Below are positions 13,989 to 44,193 of a DNA stretch of 64,000 nt, one piece after another. Source of the stretch: an uncultured Clostridia bacterium. Its GTDB lineage: Bacteria > Bacillota > Clostridia > TANB77 > CAG-508. A model generated the notes under the pieces. That model had not been told where the DNA came from. It searched no databases and was given only the letters and a program-made list of their open reading frames with translations. The position numbers and the translations under genes were made by a program. Numbering within the stretch: the stretch's first letter is position 1; the number at the start of each line of letters is the position of its first letter. The stretch lies in the NCBI GenBank assembly GCA_934178475.1, contig CAKPQH010000001.1, forward strand, positions 68,128-132,127. The letters run 5' to 3'.

Positions 13989-14735
13989 TTAATATTCAAA
14001 ATCTCTTACATAATCTAATTTTTTTATTAATAACTGTTGTGTCTCTTCATATTCCAAAGAGTCAATACTCATATCTATAGTATAATCATCTGTATAAGCT
14101 TTTATATCCTGTTCATATTCTTTTCCTTGTAAAACTACTACTTCATCTTTATCATAATCATATATTTCAACATAGTCTCTATAACTAACATATGCATATG
14201 ATAATGGTGGAACAACATATTCTTGATCGCCGACTTTTATTTTCGTTTCTTTCAAAAATAAATACATATCTTGTCCATCAAATATAAAAGCATCTTCAAT
14301 TTCTTTTGCTTTTGATTCATTATCTTTATATTTTCTTACTTTTATTTTTCCATTTTCTTTATATAAAACTGAAAAATCTTCAAATTTATAATTCGTTTTA
14401 AGTTTTGGGAATATAACTTCTACTTTTTCTGGCAAAAGTAATTTTCCAAGTTCATCTCTATAATACATTGGTGTAGCATCCAAATGCACTGTAGAATTAT
14501 CTTCTAATATTAATATTTTTTCATTTTTTTCATTTTTACTATCTTTTTTATTTATTATTTCTAGTTTTCCAGAATACTCTTTCTTTATTCCAGAAAAATA
14601 TTGATAAAAGGTTTTACCAGACAAATCAATTCTTTGATTACTTCCACTTATTGATTTATATATTCTATATGCTACAAATATAAAAATCACAGCTATTACT
14701 ATTATTCCAAATTTTAACCATCTCTCATTTTTCAT
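13989..14735 (-). CDS. Bitopic membrane protein (N-terminal TM, 248 aa) at the end of the ATPase-like operon
   Basis: Single N-terminal helix FGIIVIAVIFIFVAY. Overlaps the upstream gene by 4 nt. Confidence 0.45.
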   Translation of the reverse strand: MKNERWLKFGIIVIAVIFIFVAYRIYKSISGSNQRIDLSGKTFYQYFSGIKKEYSGKLEIINKKDSKNEKNEKILILEDNSTVHLDATPMYYRDELGKLLLPEKVEVIFPKLKTNYKFEDFSVLYKENGKIKVRKYKDNESKAKEIEDAFIFDGQDMYLFLKETKIKVGDQEYVVPPLSYAYVSYRDYVEIYDYDKDEVVVLQGKEYEQDIKAYTDDYTIDMSIDSLEYEETQQLLIKKLDYVRDFEY

Positions 14736-15280
14736 GTTTTATCAATTACCTTTCCACTTTCTTTTAAACTATGATTATTTCTATTTTCCACAATATCAAA
14801 TATATTTTTAAAAAAGAAATACATAGCAAAAATTATAACAAACACCTTCAAAGATATTTGAATAATATTTAATGATACTGAATATTGCATTTCTAACATA
14901 TAATCATTTAACACATAAATAAAATAATCAGTAATTACTTGTATTATAGCACAAACCAACTCATAAATAAACCTTTTATATGATAAAACAATATACAATA
15001 TCGATATAATTATTATCATAATTAAATATACATATATAGAATCTGTAAAAATCAAAGATGTATAGATAACCAAAAAGGTTCTTATAACAACACACGATAA
15101 TTTTACTAAATCAATATTTTTTATTCTAAAAAATAATCCATAAAATGTAACTTTCCATCTACTATCTTGTCTAAATTTTCTAACAACAAGATAGCACCAT
15201 GCTGCTAGTAAAAAAATCACTAGTAAAAACAAAAGTAAAAAACTTGTACTCTCCCTTATATAATATAAAATTAACTCCAT
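14732..15280 (-). CDS. Polytopic membrane protein (182 aa) downstream of the epsilon-like gene
   Basis: About 5 hydrophobic helices. One helix carries an intramembrane Arg (SCVVIRTFLVIY). No similarity to F-ATPase subunit a that I can see. Confidence 0.45.
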   Translation of the reverse strand: MELILYYIRESTSFLLLFLLVIFLLAAWCYLVVRKFRQDSRWKVTFYGLFFRIKNIDLVKLSCVVIRTFLVIYTSLIFTDSIYVYLIMIIIISILYIVLSYKRFIYELVCAIIQVITDYFIYVLNDYMLEMQYSVSLNIIQISLKVFVIIFAMYFFFKNIFDIVENRNNHSLKESGKVIDKT

Positions 15281-15294
15281 ATCCTCTTCCTTTA

Positions 15295-16933
<1,639 letters not shown>

Positions 16934-16936
16934 TTA

Positions 16937-17725
16937 TCATTTTGTATTTAAATTAACTTTGTTAATATTATCTATTTGTTTCTTTAAAGCTTTATTATTT
17001 TTTTCTTTTCTTTCTTCTCTTTGTTTTTCTTCTTCAATTTCATCTATCTTTTTTAAAGATTCCTTTGTTATCATTTGTCTCATAATATTTTCAGATGCAT
17101 AACTATTTTCGACAGCTACTTTTATTTCATAATTCAAATATAACGCAATTATATTTAATAATATACTATTGATATTTCCTTCAACTGCAAAATCTTCATT
17201 ATAAGAATTATTTTTAACTTTACTTTTCTCAAGTGGTAATATTTTTCTTTTTACTAATTCAATTCTACTAATATTATAATAATGATTATAAATTAAATTA
17301 ACCTCTGAATATTTTTTATCTTTAACACAATTAAACATTATATTACTTATTTTACCAGCACTATTATAATAATCATCTTTAGACAACGACAAAATAACAT
17401 TACTATATTCCTGTCCAGAAATTATCTTTTTTCCAATTATTATTTTATCATTATCAACATCTTCCTTTAATTTAGTATGAACATTTGTATTAAAGTTTCC
17501 ACAAAATCCTAAATCATTTGCTATATAAATATTTAAAGCCTTTCCTTTTTTATTCATTTTTATCATTTTCTTATCAAGTATCAGATTTTGGTTATTCAAT
17601 ATATTATCAATAAAATCTCTTACTGCTTCTTCGTATTCAAAAAATTCCTCTGCTCTTCTTTTTGAAGAATCAACCCTTAATAGAGAATGGAAATTCATTA
17701 CTTTAACTATGCTTTTAATTTTCAT
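16937..17725 (-). CDS. F1-ATPase gamma-like subunit (divergent, 262 aa)
   Basis: Sits between the alpha and beta genes. N-terminal MKIKSIVKVMNFHSLLRVDSSKRRAEE mirrors the gamma N-terminal helix; C-terminus is helical and charged. Confidence 0.5.
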   Translation of the reverse strand: MKIKSIVKVMNFHSLLRVDSSKRRAEEFFEYEEAVRDFIDNILNNQNLILDKKMIKMNKKGKALNIYIANDLGFCGNFNTNVHTKLKEDVDNDKIIIGKKIISGQEYSNVILSLSKDDYYNSAGKISNIMFNCVKDKKYSEVNLIYNHYYNISRIELVKRKILPLEKSKVKNNSYNEDFAVEGNINSILLNIIALYLNYEIKVAVENSYASENIMRQMITKESLKKIDEIEEEKQREERKEKNNKALKKQIDNINKVNLNTK

Positions 17726-17768
17726 ATTATCCTCTGTTAGCTAAAGCTAACTTCTCCCTTCATAAATT

Positions 17769-19109
17769 TTATTTTGTTTTATTATCAAAATATTCAAACC
17801 TATCAATTATATCTTGCTCAGAAAATGGTTCAAATTTATTCTGTCTTAAAAGCATTTCTATTTTCTTTCCTTCTTTCATCTTGTTTCTAAGTTCCTCACT
17901 CATTTCATCCATATTTGCAAGTTCATAAACTTCCTTTGTTTCAAGATAATTTAAAAGTTTCAATCTTACTTTAGCTCCAAGTGCCTTTATATTATCCTTT
18001 TGAACAGCACCTCCTAATCTTGATACTGAAACACCATAATCAATTGCAGGTTTTTGACCTTTAGCAAACTGTTTACTTGAAAGTACTATCTGTCCATCTG
18101 TTATTGATATTATATTTGTTGATATATAATCTGTTATATCTCCACCTTTTGTTTCAACAATTGGAAGAACTGTAATTGAACCTCCGTTTTTATGTTGGCA
18201 CCCTTTTTCAAGCAATCTTGAATGTGTATAAAAAATATCTGCTGGATATGCTTCTCTACCAGGTGTTTTATTTGATACTAAGCTTATCTCTCTATATATT
18301 TCAGCATGTCTTTTTAAATCATCTATGACTACTAAAACATCTTTTTGTTGTTGCATATACTCTTCAGCAATTGACATACCTACATATGGAATTAAACTTA
18401 ATACTGGAGTTTTATCATCATTTGTAGCAACAACCATCATAGTATATGATAAAGCATTCCTTTTTAGCAATTCATTATAAATTGTTTTAATTTCCTTTTT
18501 AGTTTTTCCTATAGCAATATAAATACATATCATATTACCTTTATTTTCTTTTACTCTACCTTGATTTACTATAGCATCTAATGCAATTTGTGTCTTTCCT
18601 GTTTTTTTATCACCAATTATTAATTGTCTTTGTCCTTTTCCAATAGGATAAATCAAATCAATTCCTGCTATTCCTGTCAAAAGTGGTCTACATACTTGCG
18701 TTCTTTCAATAATTGGAACATTTGGTTTTTCTATATCTATATATTTAAACTTTTCAAAAGACTTTCCTGATAACTGATCTACACCAAAAATATCAGTTAT
18801 TCTTCCTAAAGCTTCTTCTGCAAATATAGCTCTAAATAATTCACCAGTAGCATTAGCAATATCACCTATTTCAATAGGAGCATACTCTTTAACAATGGCA
18901 ACACTTACTGAATTTTGATATATAGCATTTACATACCCCATACCTTTTTCCATTATAACTATTTTTTCAAAATACATTACATTTTCAAGTCCTGTTACTT
19001 CAACTATATAATCTTTTATCTTAACTATCTTTCCAGAATCAAATATATTCTTTTTCTCTTTTATCTTATTAACCTTTTCATTAACTAAATTAGTTATATG
19101 TGTTTCCAT
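17769..19109 (-). CDS. F1-ATPase alpha-like subunit (446 aa, C-terminal domain shortened)
   Basis: P-loop GDKKTGKT preceded by LLTGIAGIDLIYPIGKGQRQLIIG. Also REAYPADIFYTHSRLLEKG and ISITDGQIVL...VSVSRLG (arginine-finger region). Confidence 0.9.
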   Translation of the reverse strand: METHITNLVNEKVNKIKEKKNIFDSGKIVKIKDYIVEVTGLENVMYFEKIVIMEKGMGYVNAIYQNSVSVAIVKEYAPIEIGDIANATGELFRAIFAEEALGRITDIFGVDQLSGKSFEKFKYIDIEKPNVPIIERTQVCRPLLTGIAGIDLIYPIGKGQRQLIIGDKKTGKTQIALDAIVNQGRVKENKGNMICIYIAIGKTKKEIKTIYNELLKRNALSYTMMVVATNDDKTPVLSLIPYVGMSIAEEYMQQQKDVLVVIDDLKRHAEIYREISLVSNKTPGREAYPADIFYTHSRLLEKGCQHKNGGSITVLPIVETKGGDITDYISTNIISITDGQIVLSSKQFAKGQKPAIDYGVSVSRLGGAVQKDNIKALGAKVRLKLLNYLETKEVYELANMDEMSEELRNKMKEGKKIEMLLRQNKFEPFSEQDIIDRFEYFDNKTK

Positions 19110-19142
19110 ACTTTTTTCATCCTTCCTATTATTAGTTATATA

Positions 19143-19940
19143 TTAAATGCTATAATCATAAATTTTATTTCTATACTTGATAATCATACCTTCTGACATA
19201 TTGCTATATGTTTTTAAAATAATATTTTTATCAAATTTGCTATAATTTTTGTCAATAACATTCATATAAATATATATATATGGATCTATTTCTTCCATTC
19301 TTTCATCGATGAATTTTAATAATTCATTTATTCCAAATTCCTTATTCTCTTTTATCAATTTATCCCATTTTAAAATTTTTTTATCAGTTGCAGTCAAAAC
19401 TTCCTGTATAACATCTTGTTGTTCTTGCTTATTTAATGTTAAACATTGGTATATAGCCTCTTCATTAAATTTTCCTTTAATTTTACTTAAAGCATTATAT
19501 TCTTTTTCTTCTTTTTCGTTTTTATGTTCTTTGACAAATTTTTTAATCAAATCTTCATTATCTACTGTAAATATTCTTTTTAATTCTTTATAGTTCTTGA
19601 AGAAGTCTTCTTCTCTAAACTTAGGAGTTTTTAGTTCATATTGTACTTCAATAAAATCATTGCCATCATCATTTTCTTTTTTTCTTTCTGGCAATTTGAA
19701 ATCATCATCTTTTTTTCCAATAAGATTTTTATTTTCTTGTTTCATTTCTTCGATTTCAGATTTTAGATTATTCAATTCTGTTCTTTTTTCTTCAATTATA
19801 TAATCATAATCCTGCATTTTGTTTACAAAATATCTCTTAGCATTATCATCCATCCTTTTCAATATATTCTTGAAAAGGAAGAAAACAAATACAAGCATTA
19901 TTATGATTAATATGACAGCAGCAACTATCAACTCTACCAT
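19143..19940 (-). CDS. F-ATPase b-like stalk subunit (N-terminal TM plus long charged coiled coil), possibly a b/delta-like fusion
   Basis: 265 aa. TM VAAVILIIIMLVFVFFLF then a K/E-rich helix. Sits between the c and alpha genes. Longer than a typical b; the C-terminal half could be a degenerate delta. Confidence 0.45.
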   Translation of the reverse strand: MVELIVAAVILIIIMLVFVFFLFKNILKRMDDNAKRYFVNKMQDYDYIIEEKRTELNNLKSEIEEMKQENKNLIGKKDDDFKLPERKKENDDGNDFIEVQYELKTPKFREEDFFKNYKELKRIFTVDNEDLIKKFVKEHKNEKEEKEYNALSKIKGKFNEEAIYQCLTLNKQEQQDVIQEVLTATDKKILKWDKLIKENKEFGINELLKFIDERMEEIDPYIYIYMNVIDKNYSKFDKNIILKTYSNMSEGMIIKYRNKIYDYSI

Positions 19941-19969: not shown

Positions 19970-20224
<255 letters not shown>

Positions 20225-20238: not shown

Positions 20239-21795
20239 TTAATATTTATAATTTTTAATTTTAGCCTTTAAATTTGTTTCTACCTTATTATTGTTATAAT
20301 AAGTATTTTCAAGTTTTATAGTTATATAATCTGCTTGTTTTATTTCATCTGTATTATCAATATAACCCGTATACCCTTGTGTAGTAACTGCTGTATTTAT
20401 TTTTGCAGTATTCATTGTTATTTCTTGTACACAATCAAAACTATCATTTAAATATACTCTTAATATAGGTTTATTTGAAGAATTTTCCCCATATATATAG
20501 TTTCCATCTATCTTTAAATTATAATAAATTTTTTCAGATGTTATTTTTATAAAACTTAACTTTTCTGTTTGCTTTAATGTTTTAACAGGCATTGAATCTT
20601 CAACTGTATCGACTGTTGCAGCATCAGAATAGACTATTCTGTAACCTATTTCAACCGAATAATTTGTATCTGGTATTAAGTCTTGTACTCTATATGATGT
20701 ACCATTTTTATCTAATGAAACTGATTGTATTAACTCATTTCCTTTATATACCTTAGCATACACAACATTGTATTTTCCATCTGGGTCATTTACAGTATAA
20801 CTTATATCAATAAATGTACTTGCAGATGTAACACCATTTAATTCAATACTTCTGGCAGATTCTTTTTCTTCATCTTCTTCTTGATTGTCTTTATTCTTCT
20901 TATTTAGTACACTATTAAAAGCATCTTTTACATTTTGTGACCATTTATTAAGTGTTGAAGCTAATTTATTTCTATTGCTTTCTTGGTCACCCTCACTTCC
21001 AATAATTGTTGCCTGATTGTTTTCTACTGTTGTTGAAGTACCTCCGCCATTTACTATTACCTGAGAATTTTCTGTATTATTTTCTTCATTTGTAGTATTA
21101 TTATCCTCTACATTTTTCTTTTCTTTCTCTACATATTCATTTGTACTTCCTATAATCTTTTTAAGATTTATTTCTTCATTATTAAAGATTAATTTTTCAT
21201 TCGCAACATCAAAAGTGAAATCTTGAGTTATTAATTTTATTCCATTAATCGTTCTAATATCCATTTCGTTATTTAACAATAACGCATTTCCAGCCTTATC
21301 TATTATTATCATCAAATAATCTTTTGCATCTAATGAACCTATGTCATTTCCAATGGTGTCTGATATAATTAAATATTTTCTATCAGCCATCTTATAAAAT
21401 GAACTGCTTGCAGAGGAACTTTTTACCTTATTACTACCTTTTATCTTCTTTATTTCTCCTCCATTTAACACCTGATAAAAAGTTCCATACAAGTCTACAT
21501 TTTTCTTGTTAACATCATAAGCTACAACATTTTCACCTAATTTATATTCTTTTTTTGTTATATTTTCTTTCAAATAATAGCTGCCTGTCCACTTTTTAGA
21601 AATTAGAGCAGGATTTTCTAATTCTATATAATTATAATCACTATCATATATAAAAGCTGTTGATTCTACTTCATATTTCTCTTTATCTGTTCTCAAGACA
21701 ATTATCACGCCACAAATAAGTAAAGCCAATATAATTACTACTATAAAAGTAAACATTGTAAATTTCATTTTATTTCCTGCTGTTAAATTTCTCAA
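20239..21795 (-). CDS. Membrane-anchored surface protein with FN3/Ig-like domain (518 aa), occupying the position where subunit a would be
   Basis: N-terminal TM FTMFTFIVVIILALLICGVIIVL. FN3-type tyrosine corner DLIPDTNYSVEIGY. Confidence 0.5.
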   Translation of the reverse strand: MRNLTAGNKMKFTMFTFIVVIILALLICGVIIVLRTDKEKYEVESTAFIYDSDYNYIELENPALISKKWTGSYYLKENITKKEYKLGENVVAYDVNKKNVDLYGTFYQVLNGGEIKKIKGSNKVKSSSASSSFYKMADRKYLIISDTIGNDIGSLDAKDYLMIIIDKAGNALLLNNEMDIRTINGIKLITQDFTFDVANEKLIFNNEEINLKKIIGSTNEYVEKEKKNVEDNNTTNEENNTENSQVIVNGGGTSTTVENNQATIIGSEGDQESNRNKLASTLNKWSQNVKDAFNSVLNKKNKDNQEEDEEKESARSIELNGVTSASTFIDISYTVNDPDGKYNVVYAKVYKGNELIQSVSLDKNGTSYRVQDLIPDTNYSVEIGYRIVYSDAATVDTVEDSMPVKTLKQTEKLSFIKITSEKIYYNLKIDGNYIYGENSSNKPILRVYLNDSFDCVQEITMNTAKINTAVTTQGYTGYIDNTDEIKQADYITIKLENTYYNNNKVETNLKAKIKNYKY

Positions 21796-27448: not shown

Positions 27449-27595
27449 ATTTATAATAGCATATTAAATTTTTGTTTTCAAGGTAAGTTTTGACAGCATT
27501 TTTTATAATTCGTCAAAAAAGCCCTAAAATACTGCTTGCGCAAGTTTAAAGTGCTTTTATTACATTTTTATAACATTTTTATTACAGTTTTATTA

Positions 27596-27637
27596 CAAAA
27601 AAATAAACCTATCTGTCTTTATTTGACAAATAGGTTT
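27596..27637 (-). terminator. Intrinsic terminator immediately after the 3649-aa gene
   Basis: Minus-strand hairpin AAACCTATTTG...CAGATAGGTTT followed by TTTTTT. The stop codon of the giant gene is at 27642-27644. Confidence 0.5.
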
Positions 27638-33600: not shown

Positions 33601-36600
33601 GTTGTTTCTCCTTCAAGTACCTGCGCTGATAATATATTAATGTTATCAGCTCCTGAATCTGAAATTAAAATCCACTCTTGATTAGGCATACAAGAATTCA
33701 TCTTTACAATTGGATAATAATTGTCTCTAAATTCAAAACCATAATCTCCCAAAAATCCTGTTTGATATTTTGTATCCTTTAATGAAGAACTATTTCCTTG
33801 AATGTCAATTGAATTTGAATAATACGTTTCTGAAAAATAGAAAGAATTAGATATTCTCGAAGCATTAACTTCACTTTCGCTTCCTTTGCTATAAACTTTA
33901 AATATATTAGGTCCATTTTCAACTTCTTTTTTATTTACATTTAAAGACTTATATTTTTCATTACTTTTTTCTCTAGTAACTTCTGTTGCATTTATTGAAT
34001 AAATATTTTCTACATATACATTATTATCTACTCTATAAGCAATATTAGAAGCATATGCATTTTCATTACCTAATGTTTCTATATAATGCAACCTAATTCT
34101 AGAATTATTATAAACATTTTTTATCCCCCTAAATTCACTTTCTGTATTACTTGTTGCTTTATATACTATTCCAGCAAAATATCTTGTATCATTAGATGTA
34201 ATTGCTCCATAAGATTCAATTCCACCATCACCATATATATATCCATTTTGTATTACTCCTGAAGAATATAACACACAACCAGATATATATTGAGTACCAT
34301 ATAATTTTTTAGTTAAATTTATTACAAATTTATCTATTGTTCCATTATTATTATATCCTAATAAACCAACATATTTTCTTATTATCTTTGTACTCTCTTC
34401 TAAATTTAAAATCACATTTGAAATTTCACCATCATTATATAAAAACAACGAATAGATTCCTTTACTTTCTTCTTCCTCAATCTTTTCATTTGCTTCATAA
34501 ACATTTTCATAATCTTTTGCCGCAATATTATTAATATTAAAATTAATAACAAGATTTTGTATCTTAGCTGTATCAGATAACTTATAAAAAACATATGGTG
34601 TAACATCTGATCTTATTCCAGAAGAATATGTAGTTTTACCTAAAGTATTTCCATTGAAATTAATAATTCCATTAAATGAAATTTTTTCATTTCCAAATGT
34701 ATATTGATTAACTGTTTTCGCTTGTGTTAAAGATATATCACTAGAAAAGAAATAATTTCCATCTGGTTGAATATCCATAAATCCAATTTTCTTTTCTTTT
34801 CCATATGTATCTTCGATGCTCTCAATTTCTTCGCATTTTCCTGGTATATATGAAAAATTAATTGAATCCAATGTATAATCCCTATCATACAATTTCACTA
34901 TTAATTCTAATCTAAAATCTGTTTGTTTATTTGGTCTATTTTCTATAACATATTTTATTTTTTCTTCTATTGCTTTATTATTAGCATCTTTTATATCATC
35001 AGTTGTAACTTCTACTTCACAAATATCAGCATCATTTATTATATTTTCTTCTTCTATATGTGATAGTCTAACATAATAATTCTGTAATTTAGTAAATTCT
35101 TGGTTTTCTAATAAACTATATGTAGCATTTAAATTTAAGTCTCCTTGATAAGATTCATAATCATCATTACCATCATATATTTTTATTTGTAAATTTTTTA
35201 TATATAATTCATAATCTGTTGCAATCTCTTCTATTTTTATTTCAGTATTTGTTAAATCTGTCGGAACTATATCTGAATCCGTTGTTTTAGCAATTATTAA
35301 GCCTAAATATCCATCTTTTGTCGCTGTAAAAGTTATATCTTGATTAGTCCAATTCGTACTATTTCCACAATATCCAAGTTCTGAGTGTTCCCATCCATAA
35401 CTATTTGTGCTTCCTGAATTAAATACATATTTAAAATTACTATAATTATTCGAACTGAATTTATATGTCACACCTTTTTTTACTTGAATAAGATTCTTCG
35501 TTCTAACTCTAGTAGTTGTATTTTCAATACCAGAACCTTGTTCTAAAACTCCATCATATAAATTTCTATTTTCTCCTATTTGAGGTAAATAAAATCCTAC
35601 ATATCCATCTTCACCTATTTCAAAATCATATGAGAATTTCTTATATTCAGTTGTATTCAAATTTAAACTTACATCTCTATTTTCGGAATCTTTTATTACA
35701 ATGCTCTTATTTATATTCTTTGAATTTTGTATTTTTACATCAGCATTCTCATTATTTGTCATAGCTTCAAAAGACATTGTTAATTTTGTATCTTTAGGCA
35801 AATTATATTCATTTAAATTATATACATAACTTTGATTCGATCCAAATGTTAACACATTATTTTCTTGGTCATATATTTTCTTATAATCATATCCTTTCTC
35901 TAAAACGTCAAAACATTCAGAATACCAATTATTTTTAGATTTTACATTAACAAGATTTTTTGAAACATAATTTCCGTTTTCATCTTTTTTAGCTTCTTCT
36001 TTCAAACTATCCAAAGTTACTTTCCCTGTTAATCCTTCTGTTTTAAATTCAACATAATTATAATCTTCATCCTCTTTTGTTCTATCTGCCCTACCAATTA
36101 AATATAACGTTTGTATCTTACTTGAATCTTGAGATTCATTATACTTTGAAGCTTTACAAGTTAATTTATAAATTTTATTTTTTTCTAATCCTGTATAATT
36201 AAATTCAAACTGATTTCCTTCTTTATTTAAATATTTTTCATCTTCTCTTACTACTGTTATGCTACCATTTTCCTCTGTTGTTTCTAGTCTTACTGTAACT
36301 AATTTTTCCTTTTCATCTCCAATTGCTCCATCTTTATCATCTATAATAAAATTAAAATTAATAAAATTGTCTGTAGTCACTACATTATTTACACTCATCA
36401 AAGCTGTACTTTTTTTAGTTATTATCTCATTAAAATCATATGATGTATCTATTTTCTTTTCTTTTCCACCTTGACTTATTATAGCTTCCACTAATATAAT
36501 ATATTTTGAATTACTTTCCAAATTAGTTATATCTAATTCAACATTTTCTTCTTTTTTCAAAGAATTCAATTGTTGATGATCAAAAGAAATCTCTTTTTCA

Positions 36601-38591
36601 ACTTCTCCAGTTGAATCATTTCTTAATTTTATCTTAAATGATTTTAAAATTTGTATTAGTAAAGCATCTGTGTCTTCTTTATTAACGACTGATATTACAA
36701 GTCCAGCCTCATTACTTGTTAATTTTTCTTCATCGCTTGAAATATTTAATTTTAATTTTCCCAATAATGCATTTGTCACAAATGTCTGAGTACCAATAAG
36801 TTTATTATATTGCATCCCTTTTCCATCTTCTATATCATAATCCCCATAAACATTTATAACATAAGCTGTTTCAATTTCTAAATCTTGAAAAATAACTTTA
36901 TCTTTATCCTGTTCTAGCATTCCTTGTTTTATTAATTCTCCACCAGCTGTTAAAAGTTCATATCTATAATTTTCTACCCTTACTTTATCTTCATTGCGAA
37001 GTGTAGTATTTACAGTAGTTTTTAAATCATTACTTTTAGCACTAATCTTTACAGTAGGAACAGCTTTTAATGTATTTGTTTCTCCTGTATTGCTATTTAG
37101 CTTCATCTCATCACTATTTGTATCATAAAATTTAATTTTATATGAGTATTTTGTATTAGACTCTAATCCTTCTTCTGTTTGATATGTTATTCTTTCTCCT
37201 CTTAACAATTGCTTTAAATTTAAAGAACTAATTTTGTATTCAATTCCATTGATTTCTATAACTGCTTTTACAACCCCATAAATTGCCTCATCAGTTATAT
37301 CTGATGTAATCCCAAAATTCTTTAGTTCTATTTTATTTTCATAAATCTCTCCATTTTCAAATGTTAAATCTATAGCTTTTATATTTTCTGTTCCTAATGT
37401 AGTAAAACTGCTCTTATAAAATGTAACTTCTATTTTGTCGCCATCTTGATTAATGTATTGATATGTACCTTCAACTTCATATGTAGTATTAGGACATAAT
37501 TTTGTTATATTAAATCTTCCTGAAGAATTAGTAGCTCTTCTAAATGAAACCTTACCATCTTTATAAAATGTAAAAGTAGGGGCCTTGCATATAGCTCCAC
37601 TTGGGTCTTTTATCTCTACCTCATTAAATGCTATATATGTACTTGCTGTAAATCCAGTAGCTTTTACTTCTGGTTTTATCCATTTAACATCTGCATTATT
37701 AGTATTATCTGGTACTTCTATTACAGGAGTCTCAATAATATTCTCTTCTTTATTTTCTTCATCCTTATCTTCTTTGTTATCTTTTGTTGTATCTTCTTTA
37801 ATAATTTCTTTAGGAGGAACTTCAGCTCTGATTATACCTAATGCAATTAATAATTCTTTATATGTATATTGCTTATTATAATCCTCTATAATAACTTGCG
37901 AATTATCATCAACATCTAAAATTTTATTATAAACAAAATAATCTCCATTTAACGAATAATATGTAATAAATTTATTTGTTATGTTCATAATACTATTCAT
38001 TGGTATTTTATATTCACCAGAATATGTTTTTATTTTCATTTCCTTACAGTTAATATATAAGTTTTCAGCATTTTTCATCAAGATATAATCACAAAAATCA
38101 GCTCTTTCAAGAGTTAAAGAATTGTATAAAACACCTGAAGTCAAAGTAAATCCTTTATAACCACTTGTAGTTTCCAAGTCAGATGTAATCAACGATACAT
38201 CTTGACTCAAATTATACAAAGCCAAATTATCATTTACATATATAGGATAATCTAAATTTATATTTTGAGTTTTACTTGCTCCTATGTAATATGACCTCAA
38301 ATTCTTATATACCATATCTTGATCTTTAACTTTCAATGCCTGAATATTTTCATTAACTTGAAAAGTTGCATCTAACAAATTATTTGTAATCTCTTTTCCT
38401 GCAACAGCATATCCATCGTATGTCAGTGTCTCATATGGAATAAATCTTAAATAAATTATATATAAAGCCAATAATATTATTATAAAGAAATTTAATATTG
38501 CCATAAAAAACCAAGCTATATTTCTTTTGTTTTCTTTATTTGTTTTTTCTTCCTTCATATCTTCCTCCACTTTATTTTTTTCTCTTATCAA
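27642..38591 (-). CDS. Giant surface protein (3649 aa): N-terminal TM, FN3/Ig-like modules, GLUG-motif beta-helix repeats, C-terminal TM anchor
   Basis: N-terminal helix IAWFFMAILNFFIIILLALYIIYL. FN3 motifs (TKLCPNTTYEVEGTY, LESNTKYSYKIKFY). At least 17 repeats of xGG(I/V/L)(A/V/I)G spaced 25-35 aa apart (GGIIGENAGYIGNC, GGIAGRAHT, GGVFGYVEQ, GGAFGYSNA, GGIVGRENY, GGIAGYSEG, GGLVGYLKN, GGVIGKVD), spanning about nt 29550-32750. C-terminal helix IGIILFAIVIVSIGIILVVMKRKNIKD. Confidence 0.7.
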   Translation of the reverse strand: MIREKNKVEEDMKEEKTNKENKRNIAWFFMAILNFFIIILLALYIIYLRFIPYETLTYDGYAVAGKEITNNLLDATFQVNENIQALKVKDQDMVYKNLRSYYIGASKTQNINLDYPIYVNDNLALYNLSQDVSLITSDLETTSGYKGFTLTSGVLYNSLTLERADFCDYILMKNAENLYINCKEMKIKTYSGEYKIPMNSIMNITNKFITYYSLNGDYFVYNKILDVDDNSQVIIEDYNKQYTYKELLIALGIIRAEVPPKEIIKEDTTKDNKEDKDEENKEENIIETPVIEVPDNTNNADVKWIKPEVKATGFTASTYIAFNEVEIKDPSGAICKAPTFTFYKDGKVSFRRATNSSGRFNITKLCPNTTYEVEGTYQYINQDGDKIEVTFYKSSFTTLGTENIKAIDLTFENGEIYENKIELKNFGITSDITDEAIYGVVKAVIEINGIEYKISSLNLKQLLRGERITYQTEEGLESNTKYSYKIKFYDTNSDEMKLNSNTGETNTLKAVPTVKISAKSNDLKTTVNTTLRNEDKVRVENYRYELLTAGGELIKQGMLEQDKDKVIFQDLEIETAYVINVYGDYDIEDGKGMQYNKLIGTQTFVTNALLGKLKLNISSDEEKLTSNEAGLVISVVNKEDTDALLIQILKSFKIKLRNDSTGEVEKEISFDHQQLNSLKKEENVELDITNLESNSKYIILVEAIISQGGKEKKIDTSYDFNEIITKKSTALMSVNNVVTTDNFINFNFIIDDKDGAIGDEKEKLVTVRLETTEENGSITVVREDEKYLNKEGNQFEFNYTGLEKNKIYKLTCKASKYNESQDSSKIQTLYLIGRADRTKEDEDYNYVEFKTEGLTGKVTLDSLKEEAKKDENGNYVSKNLVNVKSKNNWYSECFDVLEKGYDYKKIYDQENNVLTFGSNQSYVYNLNEYNLPKDTKLTMSFEAMTNNENADVKIQNSKNINKSIVIKDSENRDVSLNLNTTEYKKFSYDFEIGEDGYVGFYLPQIGENRNLYDGVLEQGSGIENTTTRVRTKNLIQVKKGVTYKFSSNNYSNFKYVFNSGSTNSYGWEHSELGYCGNSTNWTNQDITFTATKDGYLGLIIAKTTDSDIVPTDLTNTEIKIEEIATDYELYIKNLQIKIYDGNDDYESYQGDLNLNATYSLLENQEFTKLQNYYVRLSHIEEENIINDADICEVEVTTDDIKDANNKAIEEKIKYVIENRPNKQTDFRLELIVKLYDRDYTLDSINFSYIPGKCEEIESIEDTYGKEKKIGFMDIQPDGNYFFSSDISLTQAKTVNQYTFGNEKISFNGIINFNGNTLGKTTYSSGIRSDVTPYVFYKLSDTAKIQNLVINFNINNIAAKDYENVYEANEKIEEEESKGIYSLFLYNDGEISNVILNLEESTKIIRKYVGLLGYNNNGTIDKFVINLTKKLYGTQYISGCVLYSSGVIQNGYIYGDGGIESYGAITSNDTRYFAGIVYKATSNTESEFRGIKNVYNNSRIRLHYIETLGNENAYASNIAYRVDNNVYVENIYSINATEVTREKSNEKYKSLNVNKKEVENGPNIFKVYSKGSESEVNASRISNSFYFSETYYSNSIDIQGNSSSLKDTKYQTGFLGDYGFEFRDNYYPIVKMNSCMPNQEWILISDSGADNINILSAQVLEGETTDEIIQSINNRLEETFGLGEVITGENGTESRIRKAIEDYESQNNVKVTDENIYVAEISLYNSRNSEIDEEHGVDIDFVDEHIIGQGKGNQRTLLYAIIDNPQIYYNTYNISKISYKTWVDGVYTTVEQKFGGNEPLGKKTINMKFVKKITNAEEWCNIDQYTTDAEGNSLGVKGLVQNYRLVNDIDFNNSEELPNISGIFEGEITAEKIQVEEEKDGVKQVVTRYPILKNINLSQETFFEILNGKVENLNIENYTQDGFKEFSENSKYYLGFIGMTDKKAIINNIHLKNINLSCAYNETNINANCYVAGIICEMTQNVIKNSSVSGLYFDCTRDDSNKQFNMAMGGIVGYATSSSKTIENCYVQNFNVNLGNNITSLGIGGILGRVDDSENSKITVDIKYCYSTGNITTYQNYIGGIFGKNKGKVEKCYSTIDITSNSTATSTGAIGGIGGHSTTASENIYNLYTGNMYVKKTGMSNVNNIIGSSDDKNATDIIKVTLANNYAYSGQRINGKIDATSETAYGATLISSVAKKEKDGDSRICKNTTMKNNFAGNYYKSNIINSDGYIIDNLPLLYENEESRELMIWQDNIEISIINLKILGVKAEYIDNLDTKEEENNPKAKLTLTINNPDQIEVTGLEFEKINYIESMVCNSVLSQTYNDKTKNSIVELEVTPNYYYDTYKINKLWYKYNGAEKDIVIDTKVSIIFYKGVKKWDDFDYRNTYQNYKILQNINLNTNGPKKTADNHLENSELIVGRLVGKVNDAREKPIIGGTNDQTYSFKLNKYRSGLIKECSVALQDISFENIEVTSKASNTGIFSLVTANCKNISFNKITVNASGYSYIGTIAQLTNAKIQDIELSGITCSGYDYVGGLSGYSTLSGECKNMKARYTSVSGHSFVGGLIGRLQNTSGYLKNISAFQTDGESRPDNGFLVKGTGSYIGGCIGYAYRNLDTVKTNNSRIIGGSVIGACVGEAYWCSQLNFEAKDNVIQGGSYVGGIIGENAGYIGNCTSINNTITGTSTRTGGVFGSLRYSEIPTNGKIISRQNVIKGAGQVGGIAGRAHTYYSSYPIRNIESIENKVYSKTSKGALQDYAGGVFGYVEQANSVPIDGVVVKDNKVEGASYVGGAFGYSNAIIRNVKVTGNNDATQVDVSGINYVGGIVGRENYSYYNSSSSYYSINQAYASNMYIKATGSNIGGIAGYSEGTVYGTYIDNSNIRGGKGSKYIGGIVGYYRASIKNQAQYISSKNFYLKNSACVNTNIEFESGSEIGGIAGVFEYGNLENCYVVNCKINPTSSAAKTTCVGGLVGYLKNKNTQTNQYISKIRNNYVINYSAKNTFIRGDNFVGGVIGKVDRLIESDTRRNTENFQDSYPEDAYGSNLIITDILASGNEVSMGIGNYMVGAGEDEETGKSYGNQNLNMVNTYIYLGNKINNYRIDVMDKYGIDEQNVDKYQIVDYNWIKNASNYKNKLSFGTSYIIDSNISNNCLPILIDANKWSSLGITQVAPEFPIEEYFDNTSRAKKFSLMSMPINRNKMYAINTSVKEQFPKVYVYTSDVDKINVEFEYVNENTAYSICTEDGNTLYTGTIKDRVNTFKFDFKQSIKIKFSNGMVCYEEDFDINDIRNKLYMQDDEYFYLLNNKLYSNKNSFDGEFANLYEGKVISTDGKIYNVYDVNTEIGEYAQFEKLEESIPLIEYEYKGKKIETYYHCTKVIEDSENEIIKDKQMYIKNKSMYILDGKLDIYGNTAIIDSYNDKQYEAALGVDGKIYNFLNKIKYPLNFKNKDIIQMTSNIKNNTNIVLVYYSSGKVVGFNYITGEEVYDNGEGKVDLFTYIANSFKKENLLYDIENINYEDEKELIAKLEKISIDEAMSNIEDDNKTGTVSENNGENSINNTESNISQTNKDIQYTVAYDTSQDKYVVYSSEELFDTKTEKVISENEKIQSNANLENYYGNLSVSKIELNDIGIILFAIVIVSIGIILVVMKRKNIKD

Positions 38592-39507: not shown

Positions 39508-39521
39508 TTTTTTCTCCTTCG

Positions 39522-40466
39522 TTATTTTAATTCATATCTTACTTTTCTTGTAGTAGGTATTCCCTCATCATCATATGCTGTGATAATAACTCTATTTTCA
39601 CCATTTTTAAGTTTTAAATTTTTAGTATATTTCGTACTATTTATATTTTCTTCAACTGTTAATGTTTCCCCATTAAACGTTATTTCAACTTTAGATATTC
39701 CTTTTTCATCTGAAATCTCTATTACAAAATCCACTTTATTGGTTGTAACTTCAACAGATGGTCCTTCTTTCATTTCCATCTCTTTTGTTTTCTTTGTTTC
39801 AACACCATTTACATCAACAGCTTTTACAGTCAATGAATGCTTTCCTGCAACTTTTATTATGTCTATTGATAATTCAGCTGATGTATCATTAATCATTTCT
39901 TGTTTTGATTTCTCATTATCCCAATAATATTCAATATAATCAATCTTACTACCAGATGTAGCTGTAACTTTTATGATTCCTTCATCTTCTATTGCTTCTA
40001 AATTTATACTTGGTCCAGTCTCCATTGTTTTTTGATATGTAGATTCTTGTCTTTTTGTATCTTTTGCAGTTATAACTATATTATTAGAACTTTCTGTTAA
40101 CTTAACATCTATTTCTTTTTCTAATTCATTATTTCCTGAAACTGTTTTGCTTGAACCATTTACACTATATGTAATTTCCTTTATTCCTACTGTACTAGAT
40201 ACTCTGATCGTTATATTTTCTGCATCTACTCTCTCTATATGTATATTTGGTTTAAGAACATTAGAGTCCGATTTTCCTGTTTGTAAAACAGCATATGTAC
40301 CATTTGCCGTAATACATATTCCAAATACAATAATTACGATTGCAAAAAATCTAACAATTGAGCTAGTTCCTATATGTTTATTATCATAATTATTAACTTT
40401 CTTTGACTTTGTTTTCTCTTTTACTTGCCTTTCTGTAGATAATATTTGATTCATACAATTCACCAT
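39522..40466 (-). CDS. Membrane-anchored protein with three tandem Ig-like repeats of about 75 aa (314 aa)
   Basis: N-terminal TM FFAIVIIVFGICITANG. Repeats IERVDAENITIRVSS..., ...LEAIEDEGIIKVTATSG..., VEVTTNKVDFVIEISDEKGISKVEITFNGE. Confidence 0.5.
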   Translation of the reverse strand: MVNCMNQILSTERQVKEKTKSKKVNNYDNKHIGTSSIVRFFAIVIIVFGICITANGTYAVLQTGKSDSNVLKPNIHIERVDAENITIRVSSTVGIKEITYSVNGSSKTVSGNNELEKEIDVKLTESSNNIVITAKDTKRQESTYQKTMETGPSINLEAIEDEGIIKVTATSGSKIDYIEYYWDNEKSKQEMINDTSAELSIDIIKVAGKHSLTVKAVDVNGVETKKTKEMEMKEGPSVEVTTNKVDFVIEISDEKGISKVEITFNGETLTVEENINSTKYTKNLKLKNGENRVIITAYDDEGIPTTRKVRYELK

Positions 40467-40572
40467 CCTATAATTCTACAAAAAATTATATCATAACGTA
40501 TTTTTATTGTAAACATTTTTAGCAAAAAATAAAGGTAGAAATTTATTACATTTCTACCTTTATTTCATATTT

Positions 40573-43500: not shown

Positions 43501-44193
43501 TTTATATCTCTCTTCTGTACCTTCCTTATATTTAATGCCATTACTTTCATCCTCTATAAAATTCACAAGATCGTCATACTCTTTAGTTGTATAAGTATAA
43601 ACTGTTTTAGACAACATATAGTCTAAATTGCTATTGCTTGGATAATTATATATTTTTGTCTTCTTTATTCCTACTCGTCCAAGTAAAGCTTTTATATCTT
43701 CTTCATTTTTATTTTTATCTGTTCCTTCTACATAAGCATTATCCAAAAGCCATAATATTTGTCCATAATATTTACTATTATTAACCTTATTATAATTAGT
43801 TACTGCCAATTTTTTTATAATATCATTGTCTTTTACCATATTATATGATCTGTTATATGTAGCTGGTGTATTTATATTTCCTGATTCTTCTTTTATTTCT
43901 CCTGTATCATCAATTTGATAATTCCATGTATAAGAAGTTGGAGCATCTAAACAATAAATATTTTTTAGTGGCATATTAGTAGATGTATCCATTATTTGGT
44001 ATATATTGTGACCATTACTTACTGCATATGCACCCTTTTTCACAAAATCTGTACCATCATATACATATCTTGCATAGCTTAAACATAATGTTTTCGTTGT
44101 TTCCCCCGTTGCAAGTACAATATTTTCTCCAATTCCAATTATTAATACTAATAATGTTATAATTAAACCAAAGATAATTTTCTTTACTTTCAT
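40573..44193 (-). CDS. Surface protein (1206 aa) with three DUF11-like (conserved repeat / prealbumin-like) domains and a C-terminal TM anchor
   Basis: Signal peptide. Three repeats of about 190 aa, each beginning D(L/I)xL(V/R/L)K(Y/F), containing TYT(L/I)RVYNEG..YA..ITD.LP.GLxY, and ending DRDS.PD. The KAFDxxNDDGKGSGLxYK segment is duplicated. C-terminus ...AISTGLKENVMPYVGVGGISLIMLAGGIILIKKFVL. Confidence 0.6.
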   Translation of the reverse strand: MKVKKIIFGLIITLLVLIIGIGENIVLATGETTKTLCLSYARYVYDGTDFVKKGAYAVSNGHNIYQIMDTSTNMPLKNIYCLDAPTSYTWNYQIDDTGEIKEESGNINTPATYNRSYNMVKDNDIIKKLAVTNYNKVNNSKYYGQILWLLDNAYVEGTDKNKNEEDIKALLGRVGIKKTKIYNYPSNSNLDYMLSKTVYTYTTKEYDDLVNFIEDESNGIKYKEGTEERYKGDKCSELLEEKVDAEKYPKWLRKDNMRGYSQNGKGYYYIDKDGNTIECSLPAELVESVQQAALWYYVNGANYDYYTGKNASDMKWWLNYSIGVDNREYKPLASYYYNSTTGNIEYSTTTGIPGAVGQMYQEQACLLYDYLIDSANAANPGDNNAYANESTKVPLSVNASTNMKKVNSKYVVGPIKLEKVGELPYILENNLVVKDQDNNAISGWYLSDENGNARSVTDYSTLVGETTGFYVTVPSTAISGVKISLNGTYQITEKTLWMTDERTTDATAEQLLVEITKKDEPFELNVNAADKKTFDLKLVKYISEINGDATRGRTITKIDSSKLKDGSRTTADYTLSKDPLKVKTGEYVTYTLRVYNEAELDGYAEEITEDIPNGLEYIYDNGITIDATGNIDYSACTKTLTDEDKKAIEFNLSQGWTIKTTNSTTNRIEMVKTDYLSKAKSTSNEIKAFDATNDDGKGSGLSYKEVKIMLKVVATDPTIGIIRNEAAITKDSDDDRDSNPDEWKKYEDDEDYDNVILEEYDIALRKFIAAISSDANIEEGEYVTVDGTTSTAYTRAPSVDTTHLKDKTATTAIYKHPKDSLTVARESYVLYTIRVYNEGDIDAYASKITDHLPTYLDYVECEFNDNYGWTVGADGKTVSTDYLSSELDKKNILKAFDSANDDGKGSGLDYKDVQILCKVNKNALPMKNITNIAQITEYQGKDGTVVPKDRDSKPDNLTDDVLDQDDRPNYEGGEDTDKTDGYIPGQEDDDDFERIVVREFDLALLKYVSEVHVIEDGNETVTQTGNTGNNTTDMIPKVEINRKKLDSTIVKFVYIIKITNEGDIPGYAMEITDYVPEGLKFYEEDNKEWVDEGNNVISTRALKGTLLNPGESATVEVTFRWINGANNLGVKTNYAEISEDYNEYDVPDRDSTPDNKIIEEDDMDYAPVLLAISTGLKENVMPYVGVGGISLIMLAGGIILIKKFVL

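What the first reader, a model, noticed from the sequence alone, without database searches (positions are those of the whole stretch)
13989..44193. A 30 kb minus-strand array linking giant repeat-rich surface proteins, a c-di-GMP cyclase and an F1-like ATPase with a degenerate Fo
Fourteen co-directional genes, tightly packed with gaps mostly under 45 bp or overlapping. There is one internal terminator after the 3649-aa gene.

The genes encode:
- four very large predicted surface proteins (1206, 3649, 1879 and 518 aa), all membrane-anchored and built from FN3, Ig, DUF11-like and GLUG beta-helix repeats;
- a REC-GGDEF regulator whose stop overlaps the start of the giant gene;
- a complete F-type ATPase gene set in canonical order (c, b, alpha, gamma, beta, epsilon) with intact catalytic motifs but no usable proton path;
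- two more membrane proteins.

In the canonical atp operon, subunit a precedes c. Here that position is taken by a bitopic FN3 surface protein.

The nearest described analogues are the Mollicutes F1-like X0 ATPase clusters. In the M. mobile gliding machinery, alpha and beta paralogs power the giant Gli123, Gli349 and Gli521 surface proteins. This host is a walled, hydrogenase-bearing Firmicute with two-component systems, not a mollicute.

My hypothesis is a rotary ATPase that moves or exports a giant surface adhesin apparatus. Possible roles are surface motility, conformational cycling, or adhesin display. The embedded GGDEF protein suggests c-di-GMP control.
Basis: partly seen in the sequence, partly recalled or inferred. 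Interest (0 to 1): 0.9.

Follow-up and report, generated by a model that had tools for sequence, protein, structure and literature searches.

The report
Proton-blind F-ATPase linked to giant proteins
A gut Firmicute carries a widely conserved operon in which a complete, catalytically intact F-type rotary ATPase that has lost its ion path is locked to huge membrane-anchored surface proteins, which points to an ATP-driven mechanical device at the cell surface of a kind described so far only in wall-less mycoplasmas.

Summary
All 14 minus-strand genes exist as described. They are not one unit. Comparative genomics splits them into two modules.

Module B (13989-38591) is the real finding. It is a 10-gene operon: 1879-aa and 518-aa surface proteins, c, a b-delta fusion, alpha, gamma, beta, a short epsilon, a polytopic 182-aa protein and a bitopic 248-aa protein. 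A separately terminated 3649-aa giant sits next to it.

- The operon's order is kept, with two rearranged variants, in 17 related loci (GC 25-58%).
- The giant stays adjacent in seven of them, upstream or downstream.
- Catalytic motifs are intact in every member.
- Every c subunit lacks the ion-binding carboxylate, and there is no a subunit.
- The stalk protein family has 536 clusters at 50% identity.
- The module fails the curated models for mycoplasma Type 2, Type 3 and N-ATPases.

Module A (the DUF11 1206-aa protein, the 314-aa protein and REC-GGDEF) recurs in metagenomes without the ATPase: 0 of 43 informative loci carry any module B gene. Its receiver has Asn at the acceptor position and its signature reads GGDDF. 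c-di-GMP control is therefore unsupported.

Best reading: an ion-uncoupled ATP-driven rotary motor that acts on surface proteins. The mechanism is inferred, not shown.

The parts
27642..38591 (-). 3649-aa giant surface protein. It has an N-terminal and a C-terminal membrane anchor and two GLUG motifs. It is an associated partner of the ATPase operon with its own terminator.
   Evidence: ORF. TM segments at residues 28-46 and 3623-3641. GLUG matches of 38 and 41 bits. Homologues lie next to the ATPase operon upstream in L083 and L084 and downstream in L005, L008, L009, L010 and L085. The C-terminal TM is also present in L083.
27597..27637 (-). Intrinsic-terminator-like hairpin (17-bp stem plus U run) after the giant gene.
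   Evidence: Sequence. Folding energy -19.7 kcal/mol, z -7.3, 0 of 200 shuffles as good. A similar hairpin follows the giant in L083.
27453..27481 (-). Promoter-like site (TTGAAA, 17 nt, TG-TATTAT) just upstream of the 1879-aa gene.
   Evidence: This is weak evidence on its own, because such matches occur at chance frequency in this AT-rich DNA (164 found, 161.5 expected).
21809..27448 (-). 1879-aa surface protein with an N-terminal anchor; first gene of the conserved 10-gene operon.
   Evidence: A homologue lies directly upstream of the 518-aa homologue in L001-L003, L005-L007, L009, L010, L081 and L083-L085.
20239..21795 (-). 518-aa bitopic surface protein in the position that atpB (subunit a) holds in canonical operons. 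Its N-terminal part is well conserved.
   Evidence: The alignment of 10 homologues has 14 invariant columns. It lies upstream of c in every locus whose sequence reaches that far; L011 and L013 show only weak or no similarity there.
19970..20224 (-). F-type c subunit that lacks the ion-binding carboxylate.
   Evidence: PF00137, 34 bits. An alignment of 12 family members with canonical c subunits shows the helix-2 Glu/Asp replaced by an aliphatic or aromatic residue in all 12. The GRNPETK loop is conserved.
19143..19940 (-). b-delta fusion (peripheral stalk): a TM helix, a long helix, a disordered linker and a delta/OSCP-like domain.
17769..19109 (-). Alpha subunit with intact P-loop and Arg finger. 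The N-terminal stalk-binding helix is present and the C-terminal ~60 residues are missing.
16937..17725 (-). Gamma subunit (divergent).
   Evidence: PF00231, 101 bits. PDB gamma chains match at E 7e-12. TIGR01146 scores 69 bits against a cutoff of 194.
15548..16927 (-). Beta subunit with all catalytic motifs intact.
   Evidence: The family is monophyletic in an NJ tree; it shares at most 50% identity with canonical beta subunits.
15295..15555 (-). Probable epsilon subunit consisting of the N-terminal beta-sandwich only, with no C-terminal inhibitory helices.
   Evidence: It sits directly after beta and overlaps its stop. It is conserved in all loci. Sequence evidence is weak: hhalign to the canonical epsilon N-domain covers 74 columns (E 0.009, probability 4.6%). 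The only PDB hit of the profile is the mitochondrial delta chain, which is the epsilon homologue (E 1.5).
14732..15280 (-). 182-aa polytopic membrane protein (~5 TM). It is not an a subunit and is a candidate membrane stator partner.
   Evidence: hhalign against canonical a subunits gives probability 0.7%. It is fused to a 248-aa-like ectodomain in L009.
13989..14735 (-). 248-aa bitopic protein with an all-beta ectodomain; last gene of the operon.
   Evidence: AF2 pLDDT 70 with about 24 strands. No meaningful fold match. hhalign probability 69% to the giant's membrane-proximal domain.
13953..13975 (-). Terminator-like hairpin at the end of the operon.
   Evidence: z -4.0.

Best explanation
Window 13989-38591 encodes a self-contained, vertically co-evolving module. 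Its core is an F-type rotary ATPase that has been uncoupled from ions and works only as an ATP-burning motor.

Shown:
- The module encodes alpha, beta, gamma, a short epsilon, a b-delta stalk protein and a c subunit with no ion-binding carboxylate.
- It has no a subunit.
- Four conserved membrane-anchored partners are encoded in the same operon: the 1879-, 518-, 182- and 248-aa proteins.
- A giant protein anchored at both ends is encoded next to the operon.

Inferred:
- Alpha3beta3 hydrolyses ATP and turns gamma-epsilon and the c-ring against a stator. The stator would be the b-delta fusion plus the 182-aa protein, which is linked to the 248-aa ectodomain protein.
- With no ion gradient to build, the torque or conformational cycle is passed through the membrane to the N-terminal anchors and membrane-proximal domains of the surface proteins.
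- That would move, tension, reset or remodel a giant surface apparatus. Possible outputs are adhesion and release, surface movement, or shedding.

The neighbouring DUF11, 314-aa and REC-GGDEF genes are a different module and are not part of the machine.
For: 1. Conserved unit.
- All 13 GTDB species representatives whose beta is 61-87% identical show the same order wherever their sequence reaches: 1879, 518, c, b, alpha, gamma, beta, epsilon, 182, 248.
- The next-best beta matches drop to 48% or less and belong to canonical atp operons.
- Four further metagenome loci agree.
- Host GC ranges from 25 to 58%.

2. Linkage survives rearrangement.
- The giant lies upstream in the window and in L083/L084, and downstream in L005, L008, L009, L010 and L085.
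- Gamma has moved to the end of the cluster in L081.
- The 182- and 248-aa proteins are fused into one 405-aa protein in L009.

3. Motor intact.
- Walker A, the catalytic Glu, Walker B, the alpha Arg finger and the DELSEED-like loop are conserved in all members.
- Beta is 53-100% identical within the family, which indicates strong purifying selection.

4. No ion coupling.
- The carboxylate is absent from all 12 c subunits.
- There is no a subunit, and the 182-aa protein is unrelated to a.

5. Stator retained.
- The 265-aa protein has a delta/OSCP-like domain.
- Alpha keeps the N-terminal helix that binds delta.
- A stator matters only if torque between rotor and stator is used.

6. Epsilon lacks the C-terminal helices. 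In bacterial F1 these helices inhibit hydrolysis (established knowledge).

7. Tight packing: gaps range from -8 to 43 nt through the 10 genes.

8. Functional precedent: mycoplasma Type 2 and Type 3 F1-like ATPases power surface machinery (PMC11864180, PMC12994834).
Against: - There is no direct evidence of expression, assembly, rotation or any surface phenotype.
- How a c-ring without an a subunit could pass work to bitopic proteins is unknown, and no structural model was made.
- Epsilon is identified only by position, size and weak profile matches.
- The 248-aa ectodomain model is of moderate quality and matches no known fold.
- L081 has no giant within 10 kb, so the giant is not universal.
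- I could not test whether the host has a separate canonical F- or V-type ATPase.
Confidence: 0.55

Rival explanations
1. Dedicated export or assembly engine. The F-type ATPase, like its relatives FliI/FliH/FliJ in type III export, would energise membrane insertion, secretion, unfolding or wall-crossing of the very large partner proteins. It would not actuate them after assembly.
For: - The partners are 518 to 3649 aa long, with N-terminal signal-anchor-like segments.
- Rotary ATPases and type III export ATPases are homologous, and beta scores 200-230 bits on FliI/SctN models.
- Synteny supports a functional link but does not say what kind.
Against: - The architecture is F-type throughout, with a c subunit, gamma, epsilon and b-delta. 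There is no export-gate homologue.
- A c-ring has no known protein-conducting role.
- Beta is much closer to F1 beta (395 bits) than to SctN (128 bits).
Confidence: 0.2
2. Non-rotary switch or scaffold. The F1 head and c-ring serve as an ATP-regulated anchor or conformational latch for the surface proteins, for example to reset or release ligand-bound adhesins as proposed for Type 3/MIB-MIP. There would be no sustained rotation.
For: - The same synteny and loss of ion coupling as above.
- The Type 3 model in PMC12994834 invokes conformational energising rather than demonstrated rotation.
Against: - The full rotor (gamma, epsilon, c) and a stator stalk are retained under purifying selection.
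- Type 2 and Type 3 lost the stalk and the alpha H1 helix (PMC11864180, PMC12994834). This family kept both.
Confidence: 0.1
3. One reading: all 14 genes form one c-di-GMP-controlled adhesin-plus-motor apparatus, with REC-GGDEF as its embedded regulator.
For: - The genes are physically adjacent and co-oriented in this window, with possible translational coupling of GGDEF to the giant.
- GGDEF Pfam match of 62 bits.
Against: - 0 of 43 GGDEF-homologue loci with at least 3 kb of downstream sequence carry any module gene. 50 of 58 keep the 314-aa gene upstream.
- In L086, L089 and L099, GGDEF is followed directly by the homologue of window gene 11816-13870.
- The giants in L005, L010 and L085 follow the 248-aa gene directly, with no GGDEF gene.
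- The signature is GGDDF and the receiver acceptor aligns to Asn.
- No c-di-GMP riboswitch was found.
- A strong terminator separates the 1206-aa gene from the rest.
Confidence: 0.07
4. An ordinary ion-translocating F1Fo ATP synthase or ATPase whose a subunit is encoded elsewhere, lying next to surface-protein genes by chance.
For: - Beta just passes the curated atpD cutoff (479.5 against 462.85), so automatic annotation would call it an ATP synthase.
- The gene order is canonical.
Against: - The essential c-ring carboxylate is missing in all 12 members.
- The family is a separate clade with at most 50% identity to canonical beta, whereas canonical beta subunits from different phyla share at least 61%.
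- Alpha, gamma and c score below the curated cutoffs.
- Synteny with the surface proteins holds across hosts with GC 25-58%.
Confidence: 0.03

Closest known systems
Mollicute Type 3 'F1-like X0' ATPase (MSC_0618 / MMCAP2_0575-0581 cluster, works with MIB-MIP)
   Same: - It is an extra F1-derived ATPase (alpha, beta, gamma, epsilon) with a non-canonical membrane sector.
- It is genetically linked to surface proteins.
- It is proposed to pass ATP energy across the membrane (PMC3369863, PMC12994834).
   Different: - Different clade: beta scores 403 against a cutoff of 570 on NF045934, and alpha scores 312 against 520 on NF045936.
- Type 3 has a different gene order (12-TM protein, cytoplasmic protein, gamma, epsilon, 87-kDa membrane protein, alpha, beta). 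It has no c subunit, no stalk, and an alpha that lacks the N-terminal helix.
- The module here keeps c, a b-delta stalk and the alpha N-terminal helix. Its partners are unrelated giant proteins, and its hosts are walled Firmicutes.
Mollicute Type 2 / G1-ATPase of the Mycoplasma mobile gliding machinery
   Same: An F1-like motor coupled to giant surface proteins (Gli123/349/521). It hydrolyses ATP without ion transport (PMC11864180).
   Different: - Beta scores 387 against a cutoff of 850 on NF045858, and alpha scores 382 against 600 on NF045863.
- PDB 9io5 beta scores 318 bits, against 395 for canonical F1 beta.
- There is no N-terminal beta extension, and no GliD, GliE or PGK partners.
- G1 lacks a stalk and c. 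This module has both.
Canonical bacterial F1Fo ATP synthase (atpIBEFHAGDC), including the mycobacterial b-delta fusion
   Same: - The order c, b(-delta), alpha, gamma, beta, epsilon is the canonical one.
- All F1 catalytic motifs are present.
- A fusion of b to delta has precedent in mycobacteria, and those chains are among the Foldseek hits.
   Different: - No a subunit and no atpI.
- The c subunit has no carboxylate.
- There is a single stalk gene.
- Epsilon lacks its C-terminal domain, and alpha lacks its C-terminal ~60 residues.
- Four extra membrane proteins are encoded in the operon.
N-ATPase (alternate F1Fo, atpDCQRBEFAG)
   Same: A second, divergent F-type operon in some prokaryotes.
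   Different: - Scores are 418 against 752 (beta) and 353 against 750 (alpha) on the curated models.
- N-ATPases keep a, an ion-binding c, and AtpQ/AtpR. They are ion pumps.
Flagellar / type III export ATPase complex FliI-FliH-FliJ
   Different: Beta and alpha are clearly F-type. c, gamma and epsilon are present, and no export gate is encoded.

Membership tests
Canonical F1Fo ATP synthase | Beta and alpha reach the curated equivalog cutoffs (TIGR01039, TIGR00962) | tested here: inconclusive
   Beta scores 479.5 against 462.85 and just passes. Alpha scores 406.1 against 484.45, gamma 69 against 194.45 and c 25 against 43.95; all three fail.
Canonical F1Fo ATP synthase | Subunit a (atpB) with the conserved Arg, next to the c-ring | tested here: not met
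   None of the 14 proteins matches ATP-synt_A. hhalign of the 182-aa family against canonical a subunits gives probability 0.7%. That family has no invariant Arg.
Canonical F1Fo ATP synthase | Ion-binding Glu/Asp in helix 2 of subunit c | tested here: not met
   It is replaced by I, L, V or F in all 12 family members aligned with canonical c subunits.
Canonical F1Fo ATP synthase | Peripheral stalk (b plus delta/OSCP) | tested here: met
   The 265-aa protein has a TM helix, a long helix and a delta/OSCP-like domain. It is a single fused gene.
Mollicute Type 3 F1-like X0 ATPase | Beta and alpha belong to the MSC_0618 / MSC_0619 families (NF045934, NF045936) | tested here: not met
   Scores are 402.9 against 570 and 311.9 against 520. 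Both are lower than the scores on the canonical models.
Mollicute Type 3 F1-like X0 ATPase | Seven-gene cluster (12-TM protein, small cytoplasmic protein, gamma, epsilon, large membrane protein with two C-terminal TMs, alpha, beta) with no c and no stalk, next to MIB-MIP | tested here: not met
   The order here is c, b-delta, alpha, gamma, beta, epsilon. The only polytopic protein has about 5 TMs. c and a stalk are present. No module protein has a Pfam or NCBIfam match to MIB or MIP. The cluster definition is taken from PMC12994834.
Mollicute Type 2 (G1) gliding ATPase | Beta and alpha belong to the MMOB1670 / MMOB1660 families, and beta carries a long N-terminal extension | tested here: not met
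   Scores are 387 against 850 and 381.9 against 600. Beta is 459 aa with no extension.
N-ATPase (alternate F1Fo) | TIGR03305 / TIGR03324 membership, with the AtpQ/AtpR genes and an ion-binding c | tested here: not met
   Scores are 418.3 against 752 and 353.4 against 750.5. c has no carboxylate.
Active diguanylate cyclase response regulator (PleD-like), for gene 38572-39507 | GG(D/E)EF active-site motif and a phospho-acceptor Asp in the receiver | tested here: not met
   The motif reads GGDDF. The PleD equivalog scores 67.7 against 474. Enzymatic activity cannot be tested here.
F1-like ATPase that powers surface machinery (functional class, not a sequence family) | Conserved genetic linkage of an ion-uncoupled F1-type ATPase with surface-protein genes | tested here: met
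   Synteny holds in 17 related loci and survives rearrangements and one gene fusion.
F1-like ATPase that powers surface machinery (functional class, not a sequence family) | A separate housekeeping ATP synthase in the same genome | not testable with these tools
   Only 64 kb of the host is available and it holds none.

The most novel reading that the evidence does not exclude
Walled gut Firmicutes, and at least one high-GC lineage, possess a widespread and previously undescribed rotary nanomachine. It is an F-type ATPase whose carboxylate-free c-ring turns in the membrane purely as a mechanical rotor. Through the 182/248-aa stator pair and the anchors of the 518-, 1879- and ~3600-aa proteins, it drives movement or conformational cycling of a giant cell-surface apparatus. 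This would be a third independent conversion of F1Fo into a surface motor, the first outside Mollicutes, and the first that keeps the rotor ring and stator.
Probability: 0.4. Interest if true: 0.95.

Novelty: new variant of a known kind. Interest (0 to 1): 0.85.

Why it matters
- This module shows that the same evolutionary move happened in walled, mostly uncultured human and animal gut Firmicutes. It happened in a large family: 536 stalk-protein clusters at 50% identity.
- The form found here keeps the c-ring and the peripheral stalk. That makes it a natural experiment on what a rotor ring does when it no longer carries ions, and a possibly more tractable system for asking how rotary torque is passed across a membrane to extracellular proteins.
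- It also matters for annotation. The beta subunit passes the curated atpD threshold, so genome pipelines will call this an ATP synthase, and metabolic reconstructions of these gut bacteria may wrongly credit them with one.

Tried and rejected
- Is the 182-aa protein a diverged a subunit? hhalign probability 0.7%, and no PDB profile hit. Rejected.
- Sequence-only tests of the 265-aa protein against b and delta gave only 1.7% and 4.2% probability. PDB profile hits were insignificant. The question was settled only with the AF2 model.
- Homology among the membrane-proximal domains of the partners: 248-aa against the giant gives 69% (suggestive). 248-aa against 518-aa aligns only the TM region. 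Giant against 518-aa gives 2.9%.
- The afdb50 fold library was unavailable.
- A protein search with the 248-aa protein returned only 9 close relatives.
- The cluster look-up gave no organism or product names.
- The c-di-GMP riboswitch search was negative.
- Six literature searches found no description of this system. The Epulopiscium paper that surfaced concerns ordinary F/V-ATPases.
- Promoter-like sites are listed in the report but occur at chance frequency.
- Whether the host has another ATP synthase could not be tested.

Full report
**Checking the observation.** The window is about 26% GC with strongly negative GC skew, so most genes are on the minus strand.

Pfam confirms the following:
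- ATP-synt_ab in 15548-16927 (beta) and 17769-19109 (alpha).
- ATP-synt (gamma) in 16937-17725.
- ATP-synt_C in the 84-aa protein.
- REC plus GGDEF in 38572-39507.
- Big_7 in the 314-aa protein.
- Three DUF11 domains in the 1206-aa protein.
- Two GLUG motifs above threshold in the 3649-aa protein.

FN3 matches are all below threshold, and most of the giants' sequence matches no family. Hydropathy shows N-terminal anchors on the 518-, 1879-, 314-, 265- and 248-aa proteins. The 3649-aa giant is anchored at both ends. The 1206-aa protein has a signal-like N-terminus and a C-terminal TM. The 182-aa protein has about five TM segments. The flanks encode rplM/rpsI, a MurJ-like flippase, a GH25 lysozyme, a DacA-like carboxypeptidase, an FeFe-hydrogenase trio, a histidine kinase with response regulator, sigA and dnaG.

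**Transcription units.** The intergenic gaps after the 3649-aa gene and after the 1206-aa gene each hold a perfect 17-bp hairpin followed by a U run. Their folding energies are -19.7 and -19.1 kcal/mol (z -7.3 and -7.9), and none of 200 shuffles folds as well. A third hairpin follows the last gene. Promoter-like sites follow both internal hairpins, but such sites occur at chance frequency in this DNA. The array is therefore probably three units:
- the 1206-aa gene alone;
- the 314-aa gene, REC-GGDEF and the 3649-aa gene;
- a 10-gene operon from the 1879-aa gene to the 248-aa gene, with gaps of -8 to 43 nt.

**The ATPase.** Beta and alpha match solved F1 subunits best (395 and 319 bits). The M. 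mobile G1 subunits score lower (318 and 278 bits).

| Curated NCBIfam model | Score | Cutoff |
|---|---|---|
| atpD (beta) | 479.5 | 462.85 |
| atpA (alpha) | 406 | 484 |
| Gamma | 69 | 194 |
| c | 25 | 44 |
| Type 3 beta | 403 | 570 |
| Type 3 alpha | 312 | 520 |
| Type 2 beta | 387 | 850 |
| Type 2 alpha | 382 | 600 |
| N-ATPase beta | 418 | 752 |
| N-ATPase alpha | 353 | 750 |

Only beta, on the atpD model, clears its cutoff, and only just.

In an NJ tree of 84 beta sequences, the 17 members of this family form a clean clade. They are 53-100% identical to each other and at most 50% identical to canonical beta. Canonical beta subunits from different phyla share at least 61%. Walker A, the catalytic Glu, Walker B, the alpha Arg finger and the DELSEED-like loop are conserved in every member. 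Alpha keeps its N-terminal helix but lacks the last ~60 residues in all members.

**No ion path.** I aligned 12 family c subunits with canonical ones. The cytoplasmic GRNPETK loop, which contacts gamma and epsilon, is highly conserved. No a subunit exists. The conserved 182-aa polytopic protein is unrelated to a (hhalign 0.7%) and has no invariant Arg.

The 86-aa protein after beta is probably the epsilon beta-sandwich without the C-terminal helices, on three grounds:
- its position directly after beta;
- conservation in all loci;
- weak profile matches to the epsilon family only.

**Conservation and linkage.** A scan of one genome per GTDB species found 13 loci with beta 61-87% identical. After those, identity drops to 48% or less, and the matches are canonical operons. 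The 13 loci come from gut MAGs labelled Clostridia, Bacilli, Lachnospiraceae, Roseburia and Coriobacteriales.

All 13 show the order 1879, 518, c, b, alpha, gamma, beta, epsilon, 182-like, 248 as far as their sequence reaches. L012 is the exception: its 1879-like genes lie downstream. Four more metagenome loci agree.

- The giant is upstream in the window and in L083/L084. It is downstream of the 248-aa gene in L005, L008, L009, L010 and L085.
- L081 has gamma moved to the end of the cluster and no giant within 10 kb.
- In L009 the 182-like and 248-like proteins are one 405-aa protein, which argues that they interact physically.
- Host GC spans 25-58%.
- Identity falls off from the cytoplasmic motor to the surface parts. 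It is 54-87% for alpha and beta, 62-88% for c, and 15-56% for b, the 182-, 248-, 518-, 1879-aa proteins and the giant. This is the pattern expected for one co-inherited machine with exposed components.
- A profile of the stalk protein finds 536 clusters at 50% identity (386 at E <= 1e-10), nearly all full length. No source names any of them beyond 'hypothetical'.

**The GGDEF gene and its neighbours are a different module.** A metagenome scan with the REC-GGDEF protein gave 80 loci at 43-77% identity.
- 50 of 58 loci with enough upstream sequence keep the 314-aa homologue.
- 14 of 38 keep the DUF11 protein.
- 0 of 43 loci with at least 3 kb downstream carry any gene of the ATPase/giant module.

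In L086, L089 and L099, which are among the closest relatives (about 70% identity), GGDEF is followed directly by the homologue of window gene 11816-13870. In this window that gene lies just beyond the ATPase operon. So the 24.7-kb module sits, as a block, between two genes that are adjacent elsewhere.

The protein's signature is GGDDF, and its receiver aligns Asn to CheY D57. No c-di-GMP riboswitch is present.

**How it most likely works.**

Shown:
- a complete, selected F1 motor;
- a rotor ring that cannot bind ions;
- a retained stator stalk;
- no a subunit;
- obligate genetic linkage to membrane-anchored surface proteins.

Inferred: ATP hydrolysis turns gamma, epsilon and the c-ring against the b-delta fusion and the 182/248 pair. 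The work is delivered to the anchors or membrane-proximal domains of the 518-, 1879- and ~3600-aa proteins. The 248-aa ectodomain and the giant's proximal domain may be homologous (69%).

What the surface apparatus then does is open. Adhesion cycling, movement and remodelling are all possible, and an export or assembly role is the main rival.

**Comparison and novelty.** Functionally this resembles the mycoplasma Type 2 (gliding) and Type 3 (MIB-MIP) F1-like ATPases (PMC11864180, PMC12994834, PMC3369863). It fails their curated models and differs in gene content. It keeps c and the stalk, both of which those systems lack. The literature I could search describes such systems as mycoplasma-specific, and six searches found no account of this one. 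I rate it a new variant of a known kind, of high interest.

Noticed in passing
window 1243-1839 (-): Full-length OLE (ornate large extremophilic) RNA, RF01071, 319 bits against a gathering score of 50. The flanking ORFs 667-1182 and 1946-2875 have no NCBIfam or Pfam match.
   Followed up: partly
window 38572-44193 (-) and 11816-13870 (-); loci L086-L165: A separate conserved module made of the DUF11 surface protein, the 314-aa Big_7 membrane protein and an atypical REC-GGDEF (acceptor Asn, GGDDF). It is widespread in gut metagenomes. In L086, L089 and L099 it is followed directly by a homologue of the uncharacterised 684-aa cytoplasmic protein. Its function is unknown.
   Followed up: partly
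L009:11670-12887: A single 405-aa ORF fuses a 182-aa-like polytopic domain to a 248-aa-like TM plus ectodomain. A second 248-like paralogue (451 aa) follows it.
   Followed up: partly
L081:1986-16052: A distant variant of the module (stalk protein 26% identical) with the order 2075, 508, c, b, alpha, beta, 88, 168, 245, 113, gamma. Gamma is last, there is an extra 113-aa gene, and no third giant lies within 10 kb. It sits next to spoIVA, so the host is a spore former.
   Followed up: no
L083:16196-17512, L084, L004:3056-4363, L085:1430-2740: Glucose-6-phosphate isomerase lies directly next to the module in four loci, downstream in three and upstream in one. This recalls the glycolytic enzyme PGK built into the M. 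mobile motor, but it may be plain local synteny. It is absent here.
   Followed up: partly
window 17769-19109 (-) and all family alpha subunits: Alpha lacks the last ~60 residues of the C-terminal helical domain in every family member (440-449 aa against 501-512 aa in four of five canonical ones). The P-loop reads GDKKTGKT instead of GDRQTGKT.
   Followed up: partly
window 27642-38591 (-); L083:1-2017: The giant is anchored at both ends (N-terminal TM at 28-46, C-terminal TM at 3623-3641, followed by a basic tail). About 3570 residues would therefore form an extracellular loop. The C-terminal anchor is conserved in L083.
   Followed up: partly
window 48404-52541 (-): A HydABC-type FeFe hydrogenase trio: hydrogenase large subunit, Nuo51-like subunit and 2Fe-2S thioredoxin-like subunit. 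This is typical of electron-bifurcating hydrogenases.
   Followed up: no
window 15548-16927 (-): Beta passes NCBI's atpD equivalog cutoff (479.5 against 462.85). Annotation pipelines will therefore label this non-ion-coupled enzyme 'F0F1 ATP synthase subunit beta'.
   Followed up: yes
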